From Clostridiales bacterium (GTDB taxonomy: Bacteria > Bacillota > Clostridia > Christensenellales > CAG-138): a stretch of 64,000 nt of DNA. Location: assembly GCA_004558825.1 (NCBI GenBank), contig SFDB01000001.1, positions 137,427 through 201,426 of the forward strand, in the 5' to 3' direction. Position 1 is the stretch's first letter, and each line of letters starts with the position of its first letter. Made by a program: the position numbers and the translations under genes. The notes under the pieces are model-generated. The model was not told the origin of the DNA. It did no database searches and was given only the letters and a program-made list of their open reading frames with translations. Below are positions 6,458 to 12,667 of this stretch, piece after piece.

Positions 6458-7339
6458 TCACAATATCGATTTGGCTATATGCATAAAATATCCTTCCATG
6501 CCGTCGCTGTCTGCGGCATGGATTTCTTTTGCGCCTATTACACGCATTTCATACGCAAGTATCGCCGCGCCGCATATTATTACGTCGTGGCGCTTTACAA
6601 GCAGCGGATGATGTCTGCGCTTTTCTCCCATCCTGTCAAGCTCTTCAATAAGCCCCTCGAGAGAATCCGGTGTTATCACAGCATCCTTTATACGCTCCGG
6701 GTCATACGATTCCATGCCGAGCGAAAGCGCCGCAAGCGTCGTTATCGTTCCTCCGACGCCTGTCCAACGGTCTTCATCAAGCTTCGGCAGCTTCAGCATA
6801 CATTCGAGGGCGTCTTCTATGTTCGTGCGCAATTCGGAAAGGCTTGCGGCCCCCTTCGTCAAGTCTCGGGCGCGCACGCAGCCCATGGGCGCACTCGTGC
6901 AGAAGCTTTGCGTTGTTATCTGCGTAGAGCCGCCGCCTATGTCTATAAGCCCGCCGCCCGCATCGCCGACGGCTCCGTCGTATGCGTACCTCGCCTCACG
7001 TTCGCCCGAAAGCACATCTACGGACGCACCCGTTGCAGCAGCAAGCGTTTTCACAAATTCTCCGCCGTTTGAAGCGTCGCGTACGGCGCTCGTCGCATAT
7101 GCAAACACGCGTATGCCGCATTCGTCTGCCTCCTTGGCAAACGTCGCCGCCGCGTCGAGCGTGTCGCGCATAGCGCGTTCATTCAGCACTCCGCTCTCTA
7201 TAAGCCCTTCGCCCAGGCGCGTCGTTATAAGCTTCTTTGGCGACGACGAATAGCTCTCGCCGTCAAAAGCATATAGGGCGCATCGAATTGAGTTGCTGCC
7301 GATATCTATCACGGCGGCACGCTTTATGTTGTCCGTCAC
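6458..7339 (-). CDS. Ppx/GppA-family phosphatase (actin-like ATPase fold, short form without HD domain)
   Basis: AAVIDIGSNSIRCALY N-terminal motif, ..GLIDIGGGSTQ.. second phosphate motif, 293 aa. Confidence 0.85.
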   Translation of the reverse strand: MTDNIKRAAVIDIGSNSIRCALYAFDGESYSSSPKKLITTRLGEGLIESGVLNERAMRDTLDAAATFAKEADECGIRVFAYATSAVRDASNGGEFVKTLAAATGASVDVLSGEREARYAYDGAVGDAGGGLIDIGGGSTQITTQSFCTSAPMGCVRARDLTKGAASLSELRTNIEDALECMLKLPKLDEDRWTGVGGTITTLAALSLGMESYDPERIKDAVITPDSLEGLIEELDRMGEKRRHHPLLVKRHDVIICGAAILAYEMRVIGAKEIHAADSDGMEGYFMHIAKSIL

Positions 7340-7341
7340 GA

Positions 7342-7644
7342 TTATTCTCCGGATGTGTCGAAAATTATGTCGTCGGGAAGCACATAGCCAAAACGCTCAC
7401 GCGCCTGCTGCTCAAGATACTCCTTGCTGCCCGAGTATTCTATCATAAATTCAAGGCGCTGTTCATCACGAAGCATTTCGTTATATCTCTGTTCGAGCGC
7501 ATCATACTCGGAGTTTATCTCGCCAAGCTTATTCATTTGCCGCACGGCGTTAACGGCAACGAAACAGGTCGCCGCCGCCAAGACGACGGTGACTGCCAGC
7601 GCAAATATCAAAAACCGTTTTTTTCTCATTCTGATGCTTTGCAC
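7342..7644 (-). CDS. Septum formation initiator (FtsB/DivIC family)
   Basis: 100 aa. Basic N-terminus, one TM (FLIFALAVTVVLAAATCFVAV), a coiled-coil, and a C-terminal ..YLEQQARERFGYVLPDDIIF motif typical of the family. GTG start with GGAGG 6 nt upstream. Confidence 0.75.
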   Translation of the reverse strand: MQSIRMRKKRFLIFALAVTVVLAAATCFVAVNAVRQMNKLGEINSEYDALEQRYNEMLRDEQRLEFMIEYSGSKEYLEQQARERFGYVLPDDIIFDTSGE

Positions 7645-7780: not shown

Positions 7781-7816
7781 ATTCAAAATCCACCGAAGAG
7801 AAACTCTGCGGTGGAT
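7781..7816 (-). terminator. Rho-independent terminator after the ABC permease gene
   Basis: Stem ATCCACCG (7788-7795) pairs with CGGTGGAT (7809-7816). On the minus strand it is followed by TTTTGAAT. Confidence 0.6.
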
Positions 7817-7837
7817 TCCGTACAGATTCAGATTCAG

Positions 7838-9139
7838 TTAGTCGTTCCTTATCGCCGTCAACGGTGAAAGGCGCATCGCCCTAAGCGCGGGATAAATGCC
7901 CGACGCAAGAGCCACAAGTATCGAGAACGCAACCGCGCCGAACGCAAGATACGGCGGAATTATACTCTTAAAACCGACATCGCCTATGAACTTATTCAGT
8001 ACGCCCGACAAAAGGTAGCTCAAGCCTATGCCCGCCGCGCCCCCGAAAAGGCCAATGAACGAGGCCTCGGAGAGAAACAGCCCCGCGATGTTCGACATTC
8101 TGCAGCCGAGCACCTTGATTATGCCTATCTCCTTCGTGCGCTCATATATACTCATCATCATCGTATTCATTATGCCTATTGCCGCAACAAGCAGCGATAC
8201 GCCGCCAATCGCGCCAAGCAGATACTGTATCTGCTTCATATTCTTTTCAGCCGCATCGAGCGCATCCTGAAGGCTGTTCGTGCCGTAGCCCATGGCGTCA
8301 ATGGCGTCTTTAACATCCTTAACGGATTTGGCGTCGGCGCATTTTACCGTAACCTGCTGATACTTGCTCGTATCTATAGATATAAACGTGCTGTTTTCCT
8401 TGGCGAGCTTTTTAAGCGCCTCAAGGTCCATCAGACAGTACCAGCTGAAGTCGTTATTGCTTTCATCCAGAATGCCCACCGGGTTTATCCTGTAAAGCTT
8501 GCCTTTCTGCACGGCTTCGCCATCAGTGCCGTAGCCGCCTTCACCATACATATTGTTATAATCAAACGTAAGCTGTATGCGCGTGTCCTTCGTCACCTTT
8601 GGATTCCCGTCTCTGTCGACGGCCGGTTTCCACGTTTTAGGGTCATAAAAGTTGCTGAGCGTCTGGCTGCCGAGCACAAGCTCATACGTCGTGCCTCCCT
8701 TATACTGCGGGTACTCACCCTCGCTGAGCGTTATGCCGAACTTATCGGCAACGTCGGAGTCTATGCCGAGTATCGATATATCCGCATAGTATTTCCCGCA
8801 TTTGAGTATGCCCCATGCCTCGATTCGCGGCATCACTGCGACAACTCCCGGAAGCTGCTTGAACGCCTCAACGCTCTTTTTATCGAGCCTTACCTCTGTC
8901 GATGTGCCGCCCATACCGTCCGGCGACTCCGTCCATTTGTAGGACATGACGGTTATGTTCGTAAGGCTCCCTATGCTCGCATACGAGTCTATGGTAGCCT
9001 GCCTTATGCCTACTCCGAGTGAAACCATTACAACTATCGACGTTGTACCTATAACCATGCCGAGTACGGTCAAGAACGCACGGAGCTTTCTGCGCCATAG
9101 ATTCAGCAGCGCAGTACGCAGCATGTCAAAGAATCTCAT
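7838..9139 (-). CDS. ABC transporter permease, MacB/FtsX type (4 TM with large extracytoplasmic domain)
   Basis: 433 aa. N-terminus MLRTALLNLWRRKLRAFLTVLGMVIGTTSIV, long extracytoplasmic domain, and a C-terminal FtsX-like three-TM bundle (..ERTKEIGIIKVLG..). Confidence 0.9.
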   Translation of the reverse strand: MRFFDMLRTALLNLWRRKLRAFLTVLGMVIGTTSIVVMVSLGVGIRQATIDSYASIGSLTNITVMSYKWTESPDGMGGTSTEVRLDKKSVEAFKQLPGVVAVMPRIEAWGILKCGKYYADISILGIDSDVADKFGITLSEGEYPQYKGGTTYELVLGSQTLSNFYDPKTWKPAVDRDGNPKVTKDTRIQLTFDYNNMYGEGGYGTDGEAVQKGKLYRINPVGILDESNNDFSWYCLMDLEALKKLAKENSTFISIDTSKYQQVTVKCADAKSVKDVKDAIDAMGYGTNSLQDALDAAEKNMKQIQYLLGAIGGVSLLVAAIGIMNTMMMSIYERTKEIGIIKVLGCRMSNIAGLFLSEASFIGLFGGAAGIGLSYLLSGVLNKFIGDVGFKSIIPPYLAFGAVAFSILVALASGIYPALRAMRLSPLTAIRND

Positions 9140-10839
9140 ACATCCTCCAATCGCCTTTCACGACGCTTGCGGAGTACGACAATAAGCACGGACGCCGCGC
9201 CGATAAATGCGGCGCCAATTATAACCCATGCCCACCACGGAAAAGCTCCGCCTGTATCTTCAGGTATATCGGGCACAATCGGGTCAAACGTCGGATCGTA
9301 CGGCTGTTCCTCGTTTACAAACAGGTTGAACGGAAGTTCTTCGGTTATGGTTTCGCCGAAAACATCCTCGTATGTAATTATAACCTTGCCCGCTATATCT
9401 CCGCCGATGCTCGGAATGACGACAAAATCCGCCCGCATCTCGGAGCCGCCCGGTATGTTTCCGCCAAAGTAGTTTTCCTCCATAGCAAGGCCCTCGCCCT
9501 CGACGGTGACCATGCAGTTATATATAGACGACCTTCCAAGATTATAGAGAGCAAATGACATCGACACGCCCTGGCCTACCCATGCATCGTCATATATCGT
9601 AAGAGTATCGAGCTTAGTCCTTATGTGCTGCGATACGGATAGCGTCAGCGTTTCGCTCGGCGTGTATGTATGTTTGCTCGACGAGCCTTCATAGCTGAAC
9701 TCAACGTTCATCGTATACGTCCTGGCTTCCGCATCGGACGGCGTCTGGAGCGTCATTGTGACCGTCTTTGTTTCGCCCTTTGCTATCTTATCGATATATA
9801 TCGTGTTCGAGCCGGAGTTTGCAGGAAGAACGACGTTATTCGGGTCGGTTATCCTAAGCTGGAGATTCTGTATTGCTTCCTCGGAAGACGTATTCTTCAG
9901 GTTAAGCGTTATGTCAAACTCGTCGCCCGCATATATCCTGTCTACACTCGTTGCGAACGATTCGATTATAAGCTTTGGCATCGATACGAGCGCATCGGGA
10001 TCTGTCGCCGTACCCGCCATGCCGTTCTTGACCGTCACAAATACGCTTACGGTGCATTCTTTTATGGCGTTAGTTCCGTCTCTGTATGAAACCTTGAAAT
10101 CGACCTGTTTTACGCCGTTGGTCGCCTCCTTGCTGAGCTTGAGGTTATAAACAAATTCAACAATATAGTTCGGATACAGCGTGCCGTAGCAGCTCTGGGT
10201 GTAGTCGATCTCTTCTATCACAAACGGGAACGATTCAAGGCTTGTCGAGATGACGGGCGTAACTTTTATGTCATAGGCAAGCCCCTTGCGGCACATAAGC
10301 GGAAGGCGTATGTTAATCCGCTTGCCCGCATCTCCCTCGGGAGCGGGAACGGGTTTGCCGGACGTGTCGACCGGGCTTATCATTATCTGCGACTCGGTAT
10401 CGGGGTCAGACGGATCAACGACAGGCTCGCTTGTCTTTTGAATCGATACTTTAACGCTTTTGGGCATCGACGCCTCTTCGAAAAAGAGCTGAAGCGTTTC
10501 GGAATACGTGCCCTGCATTGCGCTGCCGATTACCGAGGCCGTAACAAGTATCCACGAAGTCTTGTTAGGTTCAATGGTCGTGTTGCCGTTCACCGAATCG
10601 ACCTTGGCAAGCACGTTGCAGGTGCTTGCGGGAACTATATGCGCAAGAGTCACGGGCGTATCGCCTTTGTTTGTTATATAAAGCTGCATTTCGACGGAAC
10701 CTCCGACCTCCTTGAATATCCCGTCGGCAGCTACGTCGATCTTATCGACTGTTACGGCCTCGCCCATGGCAGGCAGAAGCAAAAGACACATTGCAAGCGC
10801 AAGCGCCATCGTCGTCATGCGTCTGAAAAAACTTTTCAT
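9136..10839 (-). CDS. Exported Ig-like/CARDB-like repeat protein with C-terminal membrane anchor (function unknown)
   Basis: 567 aa. Signal peptide MTTMALALAMCLLLLPAMGEA. Repeated beta-sandwich hallmarks (VEMQLYITNKGDTPV, FDITLNLKNTSSEEA, VSMSFALYNLGRSSI). C-terminal TM WWAWVIIGAAFIGAASVLIVVL followed by RKRRERR. The ATGA overlap with the permease gene indicates translational coupling. Confidence 0.8.
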   Translation of the reverse strand: MKSFFRRMTTMALALAMCLLLLPAMGEAVTVDKIDVAADGIFKEVGGSVEMQLYITNKGDTPVTLAHIVPASTCNVLAKVDSVNGNTTIEPNKTSWILVTASVIGSAMQGTYSETLQLFFEEASMPKSVKVSIQKTSEPVVDPSDPDTESQIMISPVDTSGKPVPAPEGDAGKRINIRLPLMCRKGLAYDIKVTPVISTSLESFPFVIEEIDYTQSCYGTLYPNYIVEFVYNLKLSKEATNGVKQVDFKVSYRDGTNAIKECTVSVFVTVKNGMAGTATDPDALVSMPKLIIESFATSVDRIYAGDEFDITLNLKNTSSEEAIQNLQLRITDPNNVVLPANSGSNTIYIDKIAKGETKTVTMTLQTPSDAEARTYTMNVEFSYEGSSSKHTYTPSETLTLSVSQHIRTKLDTLTIYDDAWVGQGVSMSFALYNLGRSSIYNCMVTVEGEGLAMEENYFGGNIPGGSEMRADFVVIPSIGGDIAGKVIITYEDVFGETITEELPFNLFVNEEQPYDPTFDPIVPDIPEDTGGAFPWWAWVIIGAAFIGAASVLIVVLRKRRERRLEDV

Positions 10840-10860
10840 ACGTTTATTCCCCCTAAAGCT

Positions 10861-11574
10861 TTACTGTTTGTTTTCGATTTTAACAATCCGTCCGTCAAGC
10901 AAATGTATCACCCTATCGGCATACTCCGCCATATTCGGATCATGCGTTACCATTACGAGTGTCCTGTTATGCTTGCGCAGCGTATCGACTATCATATGCA
11001 TTACCTCATCCGAAGTGCTTGAGTCAAGGTTGCCCGTCGGCTCGTCCGCAAATACAATATCGGGATTCGTCACAAGCGCCCTGGCTATACCCACGCGCTG
11101 CTGCTGTCCTCCGCTCATCTGCGTCGGTTTATGGTTCATGTGCGACTCAAGTCCCACCTCCTTGAGCATTTCGCGCGCAAGCTTATTGCGCTTGTTCGGC
11201 AGAACGCCCCTAAACGACAGTGGAAAAGCCACATTTTCAACGGCAGTATAGTATGGCAGCAGATTGAACGACTGGAATATGAACCCGACGTGCTTCTGCC
11301 GAAACACGATAAGCTCGCTCTGCGTCATACGCTCCATATGTTTGTTGGCAATAACTATTTCGCCGCTCGTTACCGGCTCAAGCCCTGCCATGACATTCAA
11401 AAGCGTCGATTTGCCCGAGCCGGAGCGCCCTACTATGCAGCAAATCTCGCCCTGCTCTATTTTAAGGCTTACGCCGCGCAGGGCGTTCACCTCCACGCTT
11501 CCGACTTTATATACTTTTGTAACATTTCGTATGTCTATAGCAGGTACAGCGTCGCTTTTTCTAATGGCCTCCAT
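10861..11574 (-). CDS. ABC transporter ATP-binding protein (MacB/LolD-like)
   Basis: Walker A GRSGSGKST, Q-loop, signature MSGGQQQRVGIARA, Walker B IVFADEPTGNLD. I prefer the start at MEAIRK (11574), which has a GGGGGTG RBS. The track start 11628 sits right behind an extended -10 (TGTTATAAT). Confidence 0.92.
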   Translation of the reverse strand: MEAIRKSDAVPAIDIRNVTKVYKVGSVEVNALRGVSLKIEQGEICCIVGRSGSGKSTLLNVMAGLEPVTSGEIVIANKHMERMTQSELIVFRQKHVGFIFQSFNLLPYYTAVENVAFPLSFRGVLPNKRNKLAREMLKEVGLESHMNHKPTQMSGGQQQRVGIARALVTNPDIVFADEPTGNLDSSTSDEVMHMIVDTLRKHNRTLVMVTHDPNMAEYADRVIHLLDGRIVKIENKQ

Positions 11575-11845
11575 CGATGCATCACCCCCGATTCTTCCCC
11601 CTCGCGGAGTTATTTTGACAACAGCCATTATTTTTCATTATAACATTTAACGTGTATAAAGCCTATCAGGTTCCATAATGTTTACATATTAGTTACAAGT
11701 AAAGTTGGATATTTTTATATTGCTTGAGCTATTGACTTTTTTGTGTTATCATCAAATAGACGTATTGATTTTGTGTCTGCTTGCATCTACGGTTTCACGG
11801 CCAAAACGCCTTGGAATTAAAATAAAATACGGAGGAAAATAAAAA

Positions 11846-12667
11846 ATGAAACGAACATTATCTATCATCACGGCGCTGCTCATCGCATCTATGCTCATTT
11901 TCGTATACGGTTGCGAAAGCGCGACGCAAAACAACGACGACACTCCGGGCAAAAATATGACGGAGTACGATTCTTCCGCCGAAAACGCCGACGTAGCATT
12001 CGGAAAAGCCGAAACGCTCGCAACGCTTGCGCTCGACGCATCGACATATGAGGCGGTCAAGGCAGAAGTCGACGCAATTGACAAACAGAACGCAAACGGC
12101 TTCATAACCACTAATGCCATCGAGCTTCTTTACGCAAACGGAAATGACAGCATATTCGTCGCCGATGATAAGCTCGCAAAGGCTTTTATCGTATTTGAAA
12201 ACGGCGAAACGCGCAGCCTGCCGTACACCGACGATACGCGGGATTCGGTTCGCGCCGAAATAAGCGATTACACTACGGCAGCCGCATACGACTTTATTGT
12301 CAAAACCACGCAAAGCGACGGCGCATTTCACCTTAACGTTTCCGACAAATCCGGCAGGTCGTGGACGATTGACGACAAGGCAATAATCGCACCAAGCAAT
12401 TACAAGGTTCTTTTCGGCGACGGCAGCGGCAACCTCTACATAATGTATACGGGCGGAAGCGATCCGAACCCCGATTTTTACCGCTACATAGCCCGTTATT
12501 CGTCAGGCGGAGCTCTGCTGACGGGCAAATTCTCGTATAAGCTTCTTGCCGATATGGACGGCGTGGCGGCTTTCTCCGAGTCGCAGATTGTTGACGCCGA
12601 AAACGTATGCATCTACACGCTTGCCGCAGCAAGCGACGGAATACGCATAATCAGAATCGCGCTGTAA
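11846..12667 (+). CDS. Hypothetical lipoprotein
   Basis: Signal peptide with lipobox (LIASMLIFVYGC), GGAGGA RBS, 273 aa. I recognise no family. Confidence 0.7.
   Translation: MKRTLSIITALLIASMLIFVYGCESATQNNDDTPGKNMTEYDSSAENADVAFGKAETLATLALDASTYEAVKAEVDAIDKQNANGFITTNAIELLYANGNDSIFVADDKLAKAFIVFENGETRSLPYTDDTRDSVRAEISDYTTAAAYDFIVKTTQSDGAFHLNVSDKSGRSWTIDDKAIIAPSNYKVLFGDGSGNLYIMYTGGSDPNPDFYRYIARYSSGGALLTGKFSYKLLADMDGVAAFSESQIVDAENVCIYTLAAASDGIRIIRIAL

What the first reader, a model, noticed from the sequence alone, without database searches (positions are those of the whole stretch)
7838..11628. MacB/FtsX-type ABC transporter whose third component is a 567-aa exported Ig-like-repeat protein with a C-terminal anchor instead of a membrane-fusion adaptor
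Seen in sequence:
- The operon order is ATPase (MacB/LolD-like), then the 567-aa protein, then the FtsX/MacB permease.
- The gaps are 21 nt and an ATGA overlap, with an extended -10 promoter upstream and a terminator at 7781-7816.
- The middle protein has a cleavable signal peptide and at least three beta-sandwich modules carrying the [LV]x[LV]xNxG/S hallmark of CARDB/NEW3-type domains.
- It also has a Pro/Asp linker and a single C-terminal TM followed by RKRRERR. Most of the protein is therefore extracytoplasmic but tethered.

Established knowledge: type VII (MacB-like) ABC systems act by mechanotransmission to an extracytoplasmic partner, such as MacA, LolC/E-LolA, or FtsX-EnvC/PcsB.

Inference: this Ig-repeat protein is the mechanically driven partner or substrate of the pump. 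That would make it an uncharacterised envelope or spore-surface module.
Basis: partly seen in the sequence, partly recalled or inferred. Interest (0 to 1): 0.6.

Follow-up and report, generated by a model that had tools for sequence, protein, structure and literature searches.

The report
ABC motor with tail-anchored Ig stalk
A three-gene unit in this gut Clostridia genome pairs a MacB/FtsX-type ABC motor with a membrane-anchored rod of four Ig-like domains; the trio is always found together in thousands of related bacteria and nobody has described what it does.

Summary
On the minus strand lie an ABC ATPase (10861-11628, true start probably 11574), a 567-aa exported protein (9136-10839) and a MacB_PCD+FtsX permease (7838-9139). 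They are separated by a 21-nt gap and an ATGA overlap, with a TGnTATAAT -10 upstream and a hairpin terminator downstream.

AlphaFold shows four beta-sandwich domains, not three, followed by a Pro/Asp linker, one C-terminal TM helix and a short basic-then-acidic tail. No enzyme or membrane-fusion-protein family matches.

The key test passed. In 96 homologous loci the Ig gene is followed by the permease in 92/92 cases and preceded by the ATPase in 73/74, mostly with overlapping stop and start codons. No fourth gene recurs. The family is large (2,685 clusters at 50% identity) and named only "hypothetical", "CARDB" or "COG1361 S-layer family". I found no paper on it.

The conserved part is the two membrane-proximal Ig domains, the TM helix and the tail. 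In a sister species the distal domain is swapped like a cassette, at about 26% identity, between strains that are otherwise about 99% identical.

The best reading is a dedicated stalk subunit of a type VII ABC mechanotransducer. Physical coupling and output remain inferred. The spore-surface idea is not supported.

The parts
11637..11645 (-). Extended -10 promoter element TGtTATAAT. The predicted transcription start is near 11630.
   Evidence: Read directly from the sequence. There is no matching -35, so the consensus scan did not list it. It is a consensus match only.
10861..11628 (-). ABC ATPase of the MacB/LolD/FtsE-like subfamily. The ORF from the first ATG is 255 aa. The likely real start is ATG 11574 (M19, 237 aa), preceded by the RBS GGGGGTGA.
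   Evidence: Pfam ABC_tran 2.9e-36. NCBIfam LolD 1.6e-70, MacB 1.5e-66 and FtsE 7.6e-61, all below the equivalog cut-offs. The gene is called at 237 aa in a 97%-identical relative.
9136..10839 (-). 567-aa exported, C-terminally anchored Ig-repeat stalk protein. It is the middle gene of the triad.
   Evidence: ORF. AlphaFold model, mean pLDDT 71.5. Marginal Pfam CARDB/NEW3 hits. The family comprises 2,685 clusters at 50% identity.
10759..10839 (-). Signal peptide (about aa 1-27, MKSFFRRMTTMALALAMCLLLLPAMGEA). SPase I type, with no canonical lipobox.
   Evidence: Sequence. Helix 2-26 in the model. The signal peptide is conserved in homologues that lack the Cys.
10435..10740 (-). Ig-like domain D1 (aa 34-135), the membrane-distal tip.
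   Evidence: AlphaFold strands 34-135. The homologous domain is hypervariable in the sister species. 6-7 of the 15 substitutions against each of the two 97%-identical relatives fall in this domain.
10030..10386 (-). Ig-like domain D2 (aa 152-270).
   Evidence: AlphaFold. Conserved within the close family.
9631..9972 (-). Ig-like domain D3 (aa 290-403), CARDB/NEW3-like. Part of the family-wide conserved core.
   Evidence: Pfam NPCBM_assoc 304-383 and CARDB 288-379. AlphaFold. The profile region about 294-592 is what distant homologues match.
9313..9618 (-). Ig-like domain D4 (aa 408-509), membrane-proximal. Part of the conserved core, carrying the YNxGxS and TYEDxxG motifs.
   Evidence: AlphaFold. 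Pfam Transglut_C 414-477. Conserved columns in A1, A2 and A3.
9238..9312 (-). Pro/Asp/Glu-rich flexible linker (aa 510-534).
   Evidence: pLDDT below 50 for residues 518-532. Family linker composition is P, E, G, M and D rich.
9172..9237 (-). Single C-terminal TM helix (aa 535-556, WWAWVIIGAAFIGAASVLIVVL), with interfacial Trp and a Gly/Ala-rich outer half.
   Evidence: Sequence. Helix 535-566 in the model. Family statistics.
9139..9171 (-). Cytoplasmic tail RKRRERRLEDV (aa 557-567), polybasic and then acidic.
   Evidence: Sequence. 198 of 231 family members have a TM helix plus polybasic tail, and 96% of those continue with two or more acidic residues. Median tail length is 14.5 aa.
7838..9139 (-). 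MacB-type permease, 433 aa: TM1, an extracytoplasmic domain of about 230 aa (MacB_PCD), then three TM helices (FtsX domain). Its start overlaps the stalk gene's stop codon (ATGA).
   Evidence: Pfam MacB_PCD 22-282 and FtsX 310-426. Closest PDB sequences are MacB (1.5e-30), B. subtilis YtrF 9o9x (3.6e-24) and S. pneumoniae 5xu1 (2.2e-18).
7781..7817 (-). Intrinsic-terminator-like hairpin (AAUCCACCG...CGGUGGAUU followed by UUGAAU) at the end of the operon.
   Evidence: Sequence. Fold -22.5 kcal/mol, z = -4.09, with 0 of 200 shuffles as stable. Not listed by the pattern scan because the U-run is short.

Best explanation
The three genes encode one self-contained envelope machine. It consists of a type VII (MacB/FtsX-fold) ABC motor, made of ATPase and permease dimers, plus a dedicated single-pass stalk subunit.

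Proposed mechanism:
- The stalk protein is exported by Sec and its signal peptide is cut.
- It stays in the membrane through its C-terminal helix, with about 11-15 residues in the cytoplasm (basic, then acidic).
- Its helix and the two conserved membrane-proximal Ig domains (D3 and D4, together about as tall as a MacB-type extracytoplasmic domain) dock on the permease.
- The variable distal domains (D1 and D2 here; up to about six more in relatives) project through the wall to the cell surface.
- ATP binding and hydrolysis move the permease's extracytoplasmic domain (mechanotransmission), and that movement acts on, or is gated by, the stalk.

The stalk therefore fills the slot that MacA, EnvC/PcsB or LolA fill in other type VII systems, using an unrelated fold and the opposite membrane topology.

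What is shown and what is inferred:
- Shown: gene architecture, domain architecture, strict co-occurrence, co-divergence, and the conservation pattern.
- Inferred: physical docking, force transmission and the output.

My ranking of outputs is:
1. Envelope protection or expulsion of surface-acting compounds, as MacB/SalXY-type pumps do.
2. ATP-controlled presentation or movement of a surface-exposed binding tip.
3. Control of wall remodelling.
For: Family assignment:
- The ATPase and permease are clear type VII components.
- The middle protein has a signal peptide, four Ig-like domains, a linker, a TM helix and a charged tail.

Linkage:
- The ATPase, Ig, permease order is kept on one strand in 96 loci. 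The permease is adjacent in 92/92 and the ATPase in 73/74.
- In 82 of 93 junctions the stalk and permease genes overlap by 4-17 nt, which implies translational coupling.
- Flanking genes differ between loci and no fourth family recurs.

Co-divergence:
- Pairwise identities of the stalk core and the permease correlate at r = 0.94. The known partners, ATPase and permease, correlate at r = 0.91.

Conservation pattern:
- Conservation is concentrated in D3, D4, the TM helix and the tail. The number of N-terminal domains varies, giving lengths of 440-1,050 aa.
- In a sister species the D1-coding stretch of about 430 nt is 29-49% identical between strains whose ATPase, permease and remaining stalk DNA is 93-99% identical. 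So D1 does not co-vary with the permease and behaves like an exposed surface tip.
- The tail signature is family-wide.

Exclusions:
- There is no enzyme, HlyD-type adaptor, defence-system or viral match.
Against: - No direct evidence of a physical complex.
- Co-occurrence and co-divergence would also arise if the stalk were only a co-regulated client.
- Ig-like domains are generic, and the Foldseek hits are uninformative.
- Nothing in the loci points to a substrate: no bacteriocin gene, two-component system or hydrolase gene recurs.
- Promoter and terminator are consensus-level calls only.
Confidence: 0.6

Rival explanations
1. The stalk is the substrate. The ABC system works like LolCDE as an extractor that pulls the tail-anchored Ig protein out of the membrane, or helps release and assemble it as a wall-associated or S-layer-like surface protein.
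For: Type VII systems can extract membrane-anchored proteins (LolCDE; established knowledge, PMC8333309 listed). Relatives are labelled 'COG1361 S-layer family' and there is a weak hit to a putative S-layer family, NF033506 at 40 bits. A TM helix followed by a basic cluster resembles a C-terminal sorting signal, and one homologue was auto-annotated as an LPXTG anchor.
Against: After the basic cluster comes a conserved acidic extension, giving net charge about +6 then -3 over a median 14.5 aa. Sorting signals lack this, and it would have to cross the bilayer during extraction. There is no LPXTG-like motif. The NF033506 score is far below its cut-off of 110. Overlapping stop and start codons suggest roughly equimolar synthesis rather than a highly abundant coat protein. 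No sortase or other processing enzyme recurs nearby.
Confidence: 0.12
2. The module is an antimicrobial-peptide or bacteriocin resistance pump of the SalXY/MacB or Bce type. The Ig stalk acts as the ligand-capturing or immunity component, playing a role like LanI next to LanFEG, and its variable tip sets ligand specificity.
For: The ATPase scores well against MacB, DevA, bacteriocin-export and darobactin-export ATPase models. The permease is closest to MacB and YtrF. The distal domain is diversified between strains, as expected for a domain that meets variable external ligands.
Against: All the ATPase and permease hits are below equivalog cut-offs, so they are family-level only. No two-component system, bacteriocin gene or immunity gene recurs in 96 loci. 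The same tip variation fits phage or immune pressure equally well. This is a sub-case of the best explanation rather than a true alternative.
Confidence: 0.15
3. It is a sporulation or spore-surface module. The system would act during engulfment or coat assembly.
For: In the window the operon sits next to divIC and ppx. In 45%-identical relatives it follows yabP-yabQ-divIC-ppx, which are sporulation-associated genes in Bacillus. One distant locus has SpoIIM nearby.
Against: That linkage is confined to the close lineage. The roughly 80 other loci have unrelated flanks and no recurrent neighbour. Even within the lineage the order relative to divIC-ppx is rearranged. The only promoter-like element is a housekeeping-type extended -10. 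Nothing in the proteins is spore-specific.
Confidence: 0.05
4. The association is only co-transcription. The Ig protein is an independent surface adhesin or wall protein that happens to share an operon with an ordinary MacB-type exporter.
For: Ig-repeat surface proteins are common and generic. There is no direct evidence of interaction.
Against: Adjacency is 92/92 and 73/74 over a family spanning about 30-97% identity with changing flanks. The genes have overlapping reading frames. The stalk co-diverges with the permease as tightly as the ATPase does. The membrane-proximal half, the TM helix and the cytoplasmic tail are selectively conserved.
Confidence: 0.08

Closest known systems
MacAB(-TolC) and Gram-positive MacAB-like pumps (S. 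pneumoniae Spr0693-0694-0695, PDB 5xu1; B. subtilis YknXYZ)
   Same: The ATPase and permease are of the same kind: four TM helices with a large extracytoplasmic domain between TM1 and TM2. MacB is the best PDB sequence match (1.5e-30), and 5xu1 also matches. Both are three-gene units in which the third protein is anchored in the membrane and lies mostly outside the cell.
   Different: The third protein here is not a membrane-fusion protein. It has no HlyD, lipoyl or alpha-hairpin domains. It is all-beta Ig-like and is anchored by a C-terminal helix rather than an N-terminal one. The gene order is ATPase, partner, permease.
FtsEX with EnvC / PcsB / CwlO / RipC
   Same: A type VII ABC motor that transports nothing but moves an extracytoplasmic partner (mechanotransmission). 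This is the functional model for the present system (PMC7668044 and PMC11139282, listed).
   Different: FtsX has a small extracytoplasmic domain of about 100 aa, and its partners are coiled-coil proteins with LytM, CHAP or NlpC domains. Here the domain is MacB-sized (about 230 aa). FtsX models score only 33-41 bits against cut-offs of 225-255. The partner has no coiled coil or hydrolase domain.
B. subtilis YtrEF (PDB 9o9x, YtrF permease)
   Same: It is the closest solved unfused Gram-positive permease, at 3.6e-24 over residues 176-432. It is a type VII system of unknown mechanism linked to cell-wall thickness (PMC8060467, PMC11466899).
   Different: The ytr operon has no Ig-repeat tail-anchored gene. 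It is part of ytrGABCDEF together with a second, ABC-2-type transporter.
LolCDE
   Same: A type VII ABC system acting on membrane-anchored extracytoplasmic proteins. The ATPase's best NCBIfam hit is LolD at 1.6e-70.
   Different: All Lol models fall below their cut-offs. The host is a monoderm Clostridia lineage. The client here is held by a TM helix with a charged cytoplasmic tail, not by acyl chains.
LptB2FG-LptC (working analogy only)
   Same: An ABC transporter with a dedicated single-pass partner whose beta-rich domain extends away from the membrane and whose TM helix packs against the transporter (established knowledge).
   Different: It has a different ABC fold class (type VI), an N-terminal anchor, a beta-jellyroll rather than an Ig fold, and belongs to diderms. 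No homology was detected.
COG1361 / CARDB / NEW3 'S-layer domain' proteins of archaea and bacteria
   Same: The domain type is the same. Pfam CARDB and NPCBM_assoc score just above their cut-offs, and relatives carry the names 'COG1361 S-layer family protein' and 'CARDB domain-containing protein'. In Haloarcula plasmids, weakly similar Ig-repeat proteins sit directly upstream of RND/MMPL transporters.
   Different: These are domain-level labels with no assigned mechanism. The conserved D3-D4-TM-tail module and its obligate link to a MacB-type ABC system are not captured by any curated family I could scan.

Membership tests
Type VII (MacB/FtsX-fold) ABC system | Cytoplasmic ABC ATPase of the MacB/LolD/FtsE subfamily | tested here: met
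   Pfam ABC_tran 2.9e-36. NCBIfam LolD 1.6e-70, MacB 1.5e-66, FtsE 7.6e-61, which are family-level hits below the equivalog cut-offs.
Type VII (MacB/FtsX-fold) ABC system | Permease with an FtsX four-helix domain and a large extracytoplasmic domain between TM1 and TM2 | tested here: met
   Pfam MacB_PCD 22-282 (60 bits, cut-off 27) and FtsX 310-426 (76 bits, cut-off 25.5). The best PDB sequence hit is MacB. Even the poor model places helices at 2-56, 288-335, 343-386 and 395-423.
Type VII (MacB/FtsX-fold) ABC system | Force transmission to an extracytoplasmic partner (mechanotransmission) | not testable with these tools
   This needs a structure of the complex or biochemistry. Only genomic coupling is shown.
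MacAB-type tripartite pump with membrane-fusion (HlyD-family) adaptor | Adaptor with an N-terminal anchor plus alpha-hairpin, lipoyl and beta-barrel domains | tested here: not met
   No HlyD or biotin-lipoyl hit down to E = 0.1. The model is all-beta Ig-like with a C-terminal TM helix. No such gene recurs in the flanks of 96 loci.
FtsEX cell-division/hydrolase-activating system | FtsX equivalog score, a small extracytoplasmic domain, and a coiled-coil hydrolase or activator partner | tested here: not met
   FtsX models score 33-41 bits against cut-offs of 225-255. The extracytoplasmic domain is about 230 aa. The partner has no coiled coil or LytM/CHAP domain.
LolCDE lipoprotein extractor | LolC/E and LolD equivalog scores, in a diderm host with LolA/LolB | tested here: not met
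   LolCE scores 67 bits against a cut-off of 362. LolD scores 237 against 308. Relatives with names are Clostridia/Bacillota.
BceAB-type peptide-antibiotic resistance transporter | Ten-TM permease with one extracellular domain, paired with a BceRS-like two-component system | tested here: not met
   The permease is 433 aa with four TM helices. No kinase or regulator recurs in the 96 loci.
CARDB / NEW3 (COG1361-type) Ig-like domain proteins | At least one domain scoring above the Pfam gathering threshold | tested here: met
   NPCBM_assoc 27.3 bits (cut-off 24.4) and CARDB 24.2 bits (cut-off 22.7), both over residues about 288-383. The margins are small. Homologues score higher, for example 43.5 bits.
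Sortase (LPXTG) or other C-terminal sorting-signal substrates | A signature motif (LPXTG or similar), then a TM helix, then a basic cluster at the extreme C-terminus | tested here: not met
   No [LI]Px[TSA][GAS] motif is present. The basic cluster is followed by a conserved acidic extension in 96% of members. The single 'LPXTG anchor' label on a homologue is an automatic annotation.
PACE-CTERM putative S-layer protein (NF033506) | Score above the curated cut-off | tested here: not met
   40.2 bits against a cut-off of 110.

The most novel reading that the evidence does not exclude
The triad is a previously unrecognised class of wall-spanning machine in monoderm bacteria. A type VII ABC motor would use ATP to move or re-orient a tail-anchored Ig rod. 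The rod's strain-variable tip is the only part exposed at the cell surface. This would be an ATP-controlled surface probe, adhesin or receptor (for example retracting or masking a phage- or host-exposed epitope, or signalling surface contact inward), not an efflux pump. The conserved basic-acidic cytoplasmic tail would couple the rod directly to the ATPase cycle.
Probability: 0.2. Interest if true: 0.85.

Novelty: new variant of a known kind. Interest (0 to 1): 0.62.

Why it matters
Type VII ABC systems are defined by what their extracytoplasmic domain pushes on. So far the known partners are membrane-fusion proteins, LolA, and the hydrolase activators EnvC, PcsB and CwlO. Most Gram-positive members, such as YtrEF, YclHI and YvrON, have no known partner or output.

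This is a large family: 2,685 clusters at 50% identity. It occurs in gut, digester and fermentation Clostridia. Its partner is obvious from the genome, obligate, and structurally unlike any known one. That gives a clean system for asking how mechanotransmission is used in a monoderm envelope.

It also flags a strain-variable surface domain in gut commensals that may matter for phage or host recognition. Finally, it suggests that the vague label 'COG1361 S-layer protein' hides at least one transporter-coupled family.

Tried and rejected
- AlphaFold of the permease. The single-sequence model was unusable (pLDDT 38.7), so no fold comparison of the extracytoplasmic domain and no interface analysis was possible.
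- The afdb50 fold library was unavailable.
- Foldseek against the PDB with the stalk model returned only generic Ig, ASH, transglutaminase-C and macroglobulin-domain hits at TM 0.15-0.27.
- PDB sequence search with the family profile returned nothing.
- Literature searches found no description of the triad: CARDB+FtsX+ABC, COG1361, YtrE/F, type VII + Ig-like, MacB+CARDB, and archaeal dark matter.
- The first metagenome scan with the very diverse alignment A2 had no usable pattern. The narrower A3 worked.
- No relatives were found in viral contigs. The stalk has no PADLOC defence match. The window has no Rfam family.
- Cluster look-ups added almost no organism names.
- Rejected ideas:
  - A diversity-generating retroelement as the cause of D1 variation. 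The variants differ by indels and are unalignable at DNA level, which is not A-to-N substitution.
  - A lipoprotein anchor. The Cys at position 18 has no lipobox and is absent in homologues.
  - Sortase anchoring.

Full report
**1. Observation**

The minus strand of 7838-11628 carries three ORFs as described:
- a 255-aa ABC ATPase at 10861-11628;
- a 567-aa protein at 9136-10839;
- a 433-aa permease at 7838-9139.

The first two are separated by 21 nt. The last two overlap by ATGA.

Pfam and NCBIfam put the ATPase in the MacB/LolD/FtsE-like group. The permease has MacB_PCD (22-282) plus FtsX (310-426). Its closest solved relatives by sequence are MacB, B. subtilis YtrF (9o9x) and the S. pneumoniae MacAB-like permease 5xu1.

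An exact TGnTATAAT lies at 11637-11645. A hairpin at 7781-7817 folds at -22.5 kcal/mol with z = -4.1. Both escaped the simple scanner because the -35 is poor and the U-run is short, so they remain consensus-level calls.

The -10 element puts the transcription start at about the first ATG. A 97%-identical relative is called at 237 aa. The ATPase therefore probably starts at M19 (11574), behind a GGGGGTGA ribosome-binding site.

**2. The middle protein**

The AlphaFold model was built from a 12-sequence alignment and has mean pLDDT 71.5. It shows:
- a signal helix;
- four beta-sandwich domains (34-135, 152-270, 290-403, 408-509);
- a disordered Pro/Asp/Glu linker;
- one C-terminal helix (535-566).

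The hydrophobic span is aa 535-556 and is followed by RKRRERRLEDV.

Pfam gives only marginal CARDB/NEW3 hits on D3 and transglutaminase-C-like hits on D4. NCBIfam gives nothing above any cut-off. The PDB holds no sequence relative, and Foldseek returns only generic Ig-type folds. There is no HlyD-type adaptor domain, no enzyme domain and no LPXTG motif.

**3. Is the association real?**

- A profile search of 1.84 billion representative proteins found 2,685 clusters at E <= 1e-3 and 774 at E <= 1e-30. Lengths run from 440 to 1,050 aa. The shared region is the last two Ig domains, the TM helix and the tail.
- I collected 96 loci from genomes and metagenomes and annotated them with HMMER.
- Wherever the contig reaches, a MacB_PCD/FtsX permease follows the Ig gene on the same strand in 92 of 92 loci.
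- An ABC ATPase precedes it in 73 of 74 loci. The exception, L014, has the ATPase after the permease.
- The Ig and permease genes overlap by 4-17 nt in 82 of 93 junctions.
- All-against-all clustering of flanking ORFs finds no fourth recurrent family. The flanks differ from lineage to lineage.
- Pairwise identities of the stalk core and the permease correlate at r = 0.94. ATPase and permease correlate at r = 0.91.

The three genes are therefore inherited and diverge as one unit.

**4. What is conserved and what is not**

The conserved module is D3, D4, the TM helix and the tail. Of 231 members examined, 198 end in a TM helix followed by a polybasic stretch. In 96% of those an acidic stretch comes next. 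The median tail is 14.5 residues, with net charge about +6 and then -3. The outer half of the helix is rich in Gly and Ala and often begins with Trp. The linker is rich in P, E, G, M and D.

The N-terminal part varies in domain number across the family.

In the sister species (about 45% identical to the window protein) it varies in a striking way:
- 118 sequences are a median 99.5% identical from D2 onward, yet they carry at least 12 D1 types with a median 26% identity. The boundary is sharp and the signal peptide is conserved.
- At DNA level the D1-coding stretch of about 430 nt is 29-49% identical. The ATPase gene, the rest of the stalk gene and the permease gene are 93-99% identical.
- D1 therefore does not co-vary with the permease. 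It behaves like an exposed tip under diversifying selection or cassette exchange.
- In the window's own species only two close variants are on record. 6-7 of their 15 substitutions fall in D1.

**5. Mechanism**

From established knowledge of type VII ABC systems (MacB, LolCDE, FtsEX; PMC5985334, PMC7668044 and PMC8333309, listed), ATP binding zips the long TM1/TM2 helices and moves the extracytoplasmic domain. That movement does work on a partner outside the membrane.

The anatomy here fits a partner that is permanently tethered beside the permease:
- it has type I topology;
- its helix has small-residue faces;
- its two conserved Ig domains together are roughly as tall as a MacB-type extracytoplasmic domain (inference from typical Ig dimensions);
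- its flexible linker and variable distal domains are long enough to cross a Gram-positive wall.

The charged cytoplasmic tail argues against extraction of the protein from the membrane, which is the substrate reading. It suggests instead a contact on the cytoplasmic side. Docking, force transmission and output are all inferred.

I rank envelope protection or expulsion of surface-acting compounds first, ATP-controlled presentation of a surface tip second, and wall remodelling third.

The spore-surface idea rests only on linkage to divIC-ppx (and yabPQ) in the close lineage. That linkage is absent elsewhere.

**6. Comparison and novelty**

The ATPase and permease are ordinary members of the type VII class. 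The system fails the membership tests for four known subfamilies:
- MacAB with a membrane-fusion protein;
- FtsEX;
- LolCDE;
- BceAB.

The stalk belongs to the CARDB/NEW3 ('COG1361 S-layer') domain class only at domain level.

No curated family covers the conserved module. The only names in the databases are 'hypothetical', 'CARDB domain-containing', 'COG1361 S-layer family' and one spurious 'LPXTG anchor'. Seven literature searches and targeted reading found no description of this triad. A description in subscription-only literature or in database neighbourhood resources cannot be excluded.

I therefore class it as a new variant of a known kind: a type VII ABC system with a new, obligate class of accessory subunit.

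**7. Limits**

- There is no structural or experimental evidence of a complex.
- The permease could not be modelled.
- The loci come mostly from metagenomes of Clostridia-rich habitats, and the taxonomic range outside Bacillota was not established.
- The archaeal connection is only a weak similarity to Haloarcula Ig-repeat proteins that sit next to RND/MMPL transporters.

Noticed in passing
L001:8074-8500, L101, L102, L103, L005 (sister-species loci); homologous to window 10435-10740: The distal Ig domain D1 is exchanged like a cassette. Strains whose ATPase, permease and remaining stalk DNA is 93-99% identical have D1-coding DNA only 29-49% identical. There are at least 12 D1 protein types among 118 sequences, with a sharp boundary just after the conserved signal peptide.
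   Followed up: yes
L097:3834-8288 (Haloarcula taiwanensis pNYT2) and L098:2349-8996 (Haloarcula sp. JP-L23 plasmid): Weakly similar Ig-repeat proteins (23-25% identity, E 4e-6 to 4e-7; one is annotated 'sialidase') lie directly upstream of RND/MMPL transporters. This hints that CARDB-type Ig-repeat proteins pair with different envelope transporters that have large external domains.
   Followed up: partly
window 6458-7644 (-) and L001, L101-L103: In the window the triad is followed by divIC (7342-7644) and ppx/gppA (6458-7339). In 45%-identical relatives the order is yabP-yabQ-divIC-ppx and then the triad. The linkage is kept but the order is rearranged, and no yabP/yabQ is adjacent in the window.
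   Followed up: partly
window 11574-11628 (-): The annotated-length ATPase ORF (255 aa) probably over-extends. The -10 element places the transcription start at about the first ATG. A strong RBS precedes M19. Relatives are called at 235-237 aa.
   Followed up: yes
window 11846-12667 (+): A 273-aa ORF is transcribed divergently from the operon. It has a lipoprotein-like N-terminus (…LIFVYGC) and no Pfam hit on record in the close relative. It is conserved next to the operon only in the 97% relative.
   Followed up: no
L014:3846-10974: This locus has a variant architecture: an extra ATPase and a 477-aa protein with no Pfam hit lie upstream of a 998-aa stalk, and the cognate ATPase follows the permease. 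SpoIIM and an ABC-2 system are nearby.
   Followed up: no
L052:90-3361 and L068:1391-4228: In L052 a second ABC system with a long FtsX-type permease ORF (about 860 aa, possibly a duplicated permease) sits immediately upstream of the triad. In L068 the triad's own permease ORF is about 945 aa.
   Followed up: no
window 9238-9312 (-) and family linkers: The linker between D4 and the TM helix is unusually rich in Met in many relatives (11% M, alongside P, E, G and D; for example GMEGMDGMEVYGPGMEE). The window protein has the Pro/Asp version.
   Followed up: no
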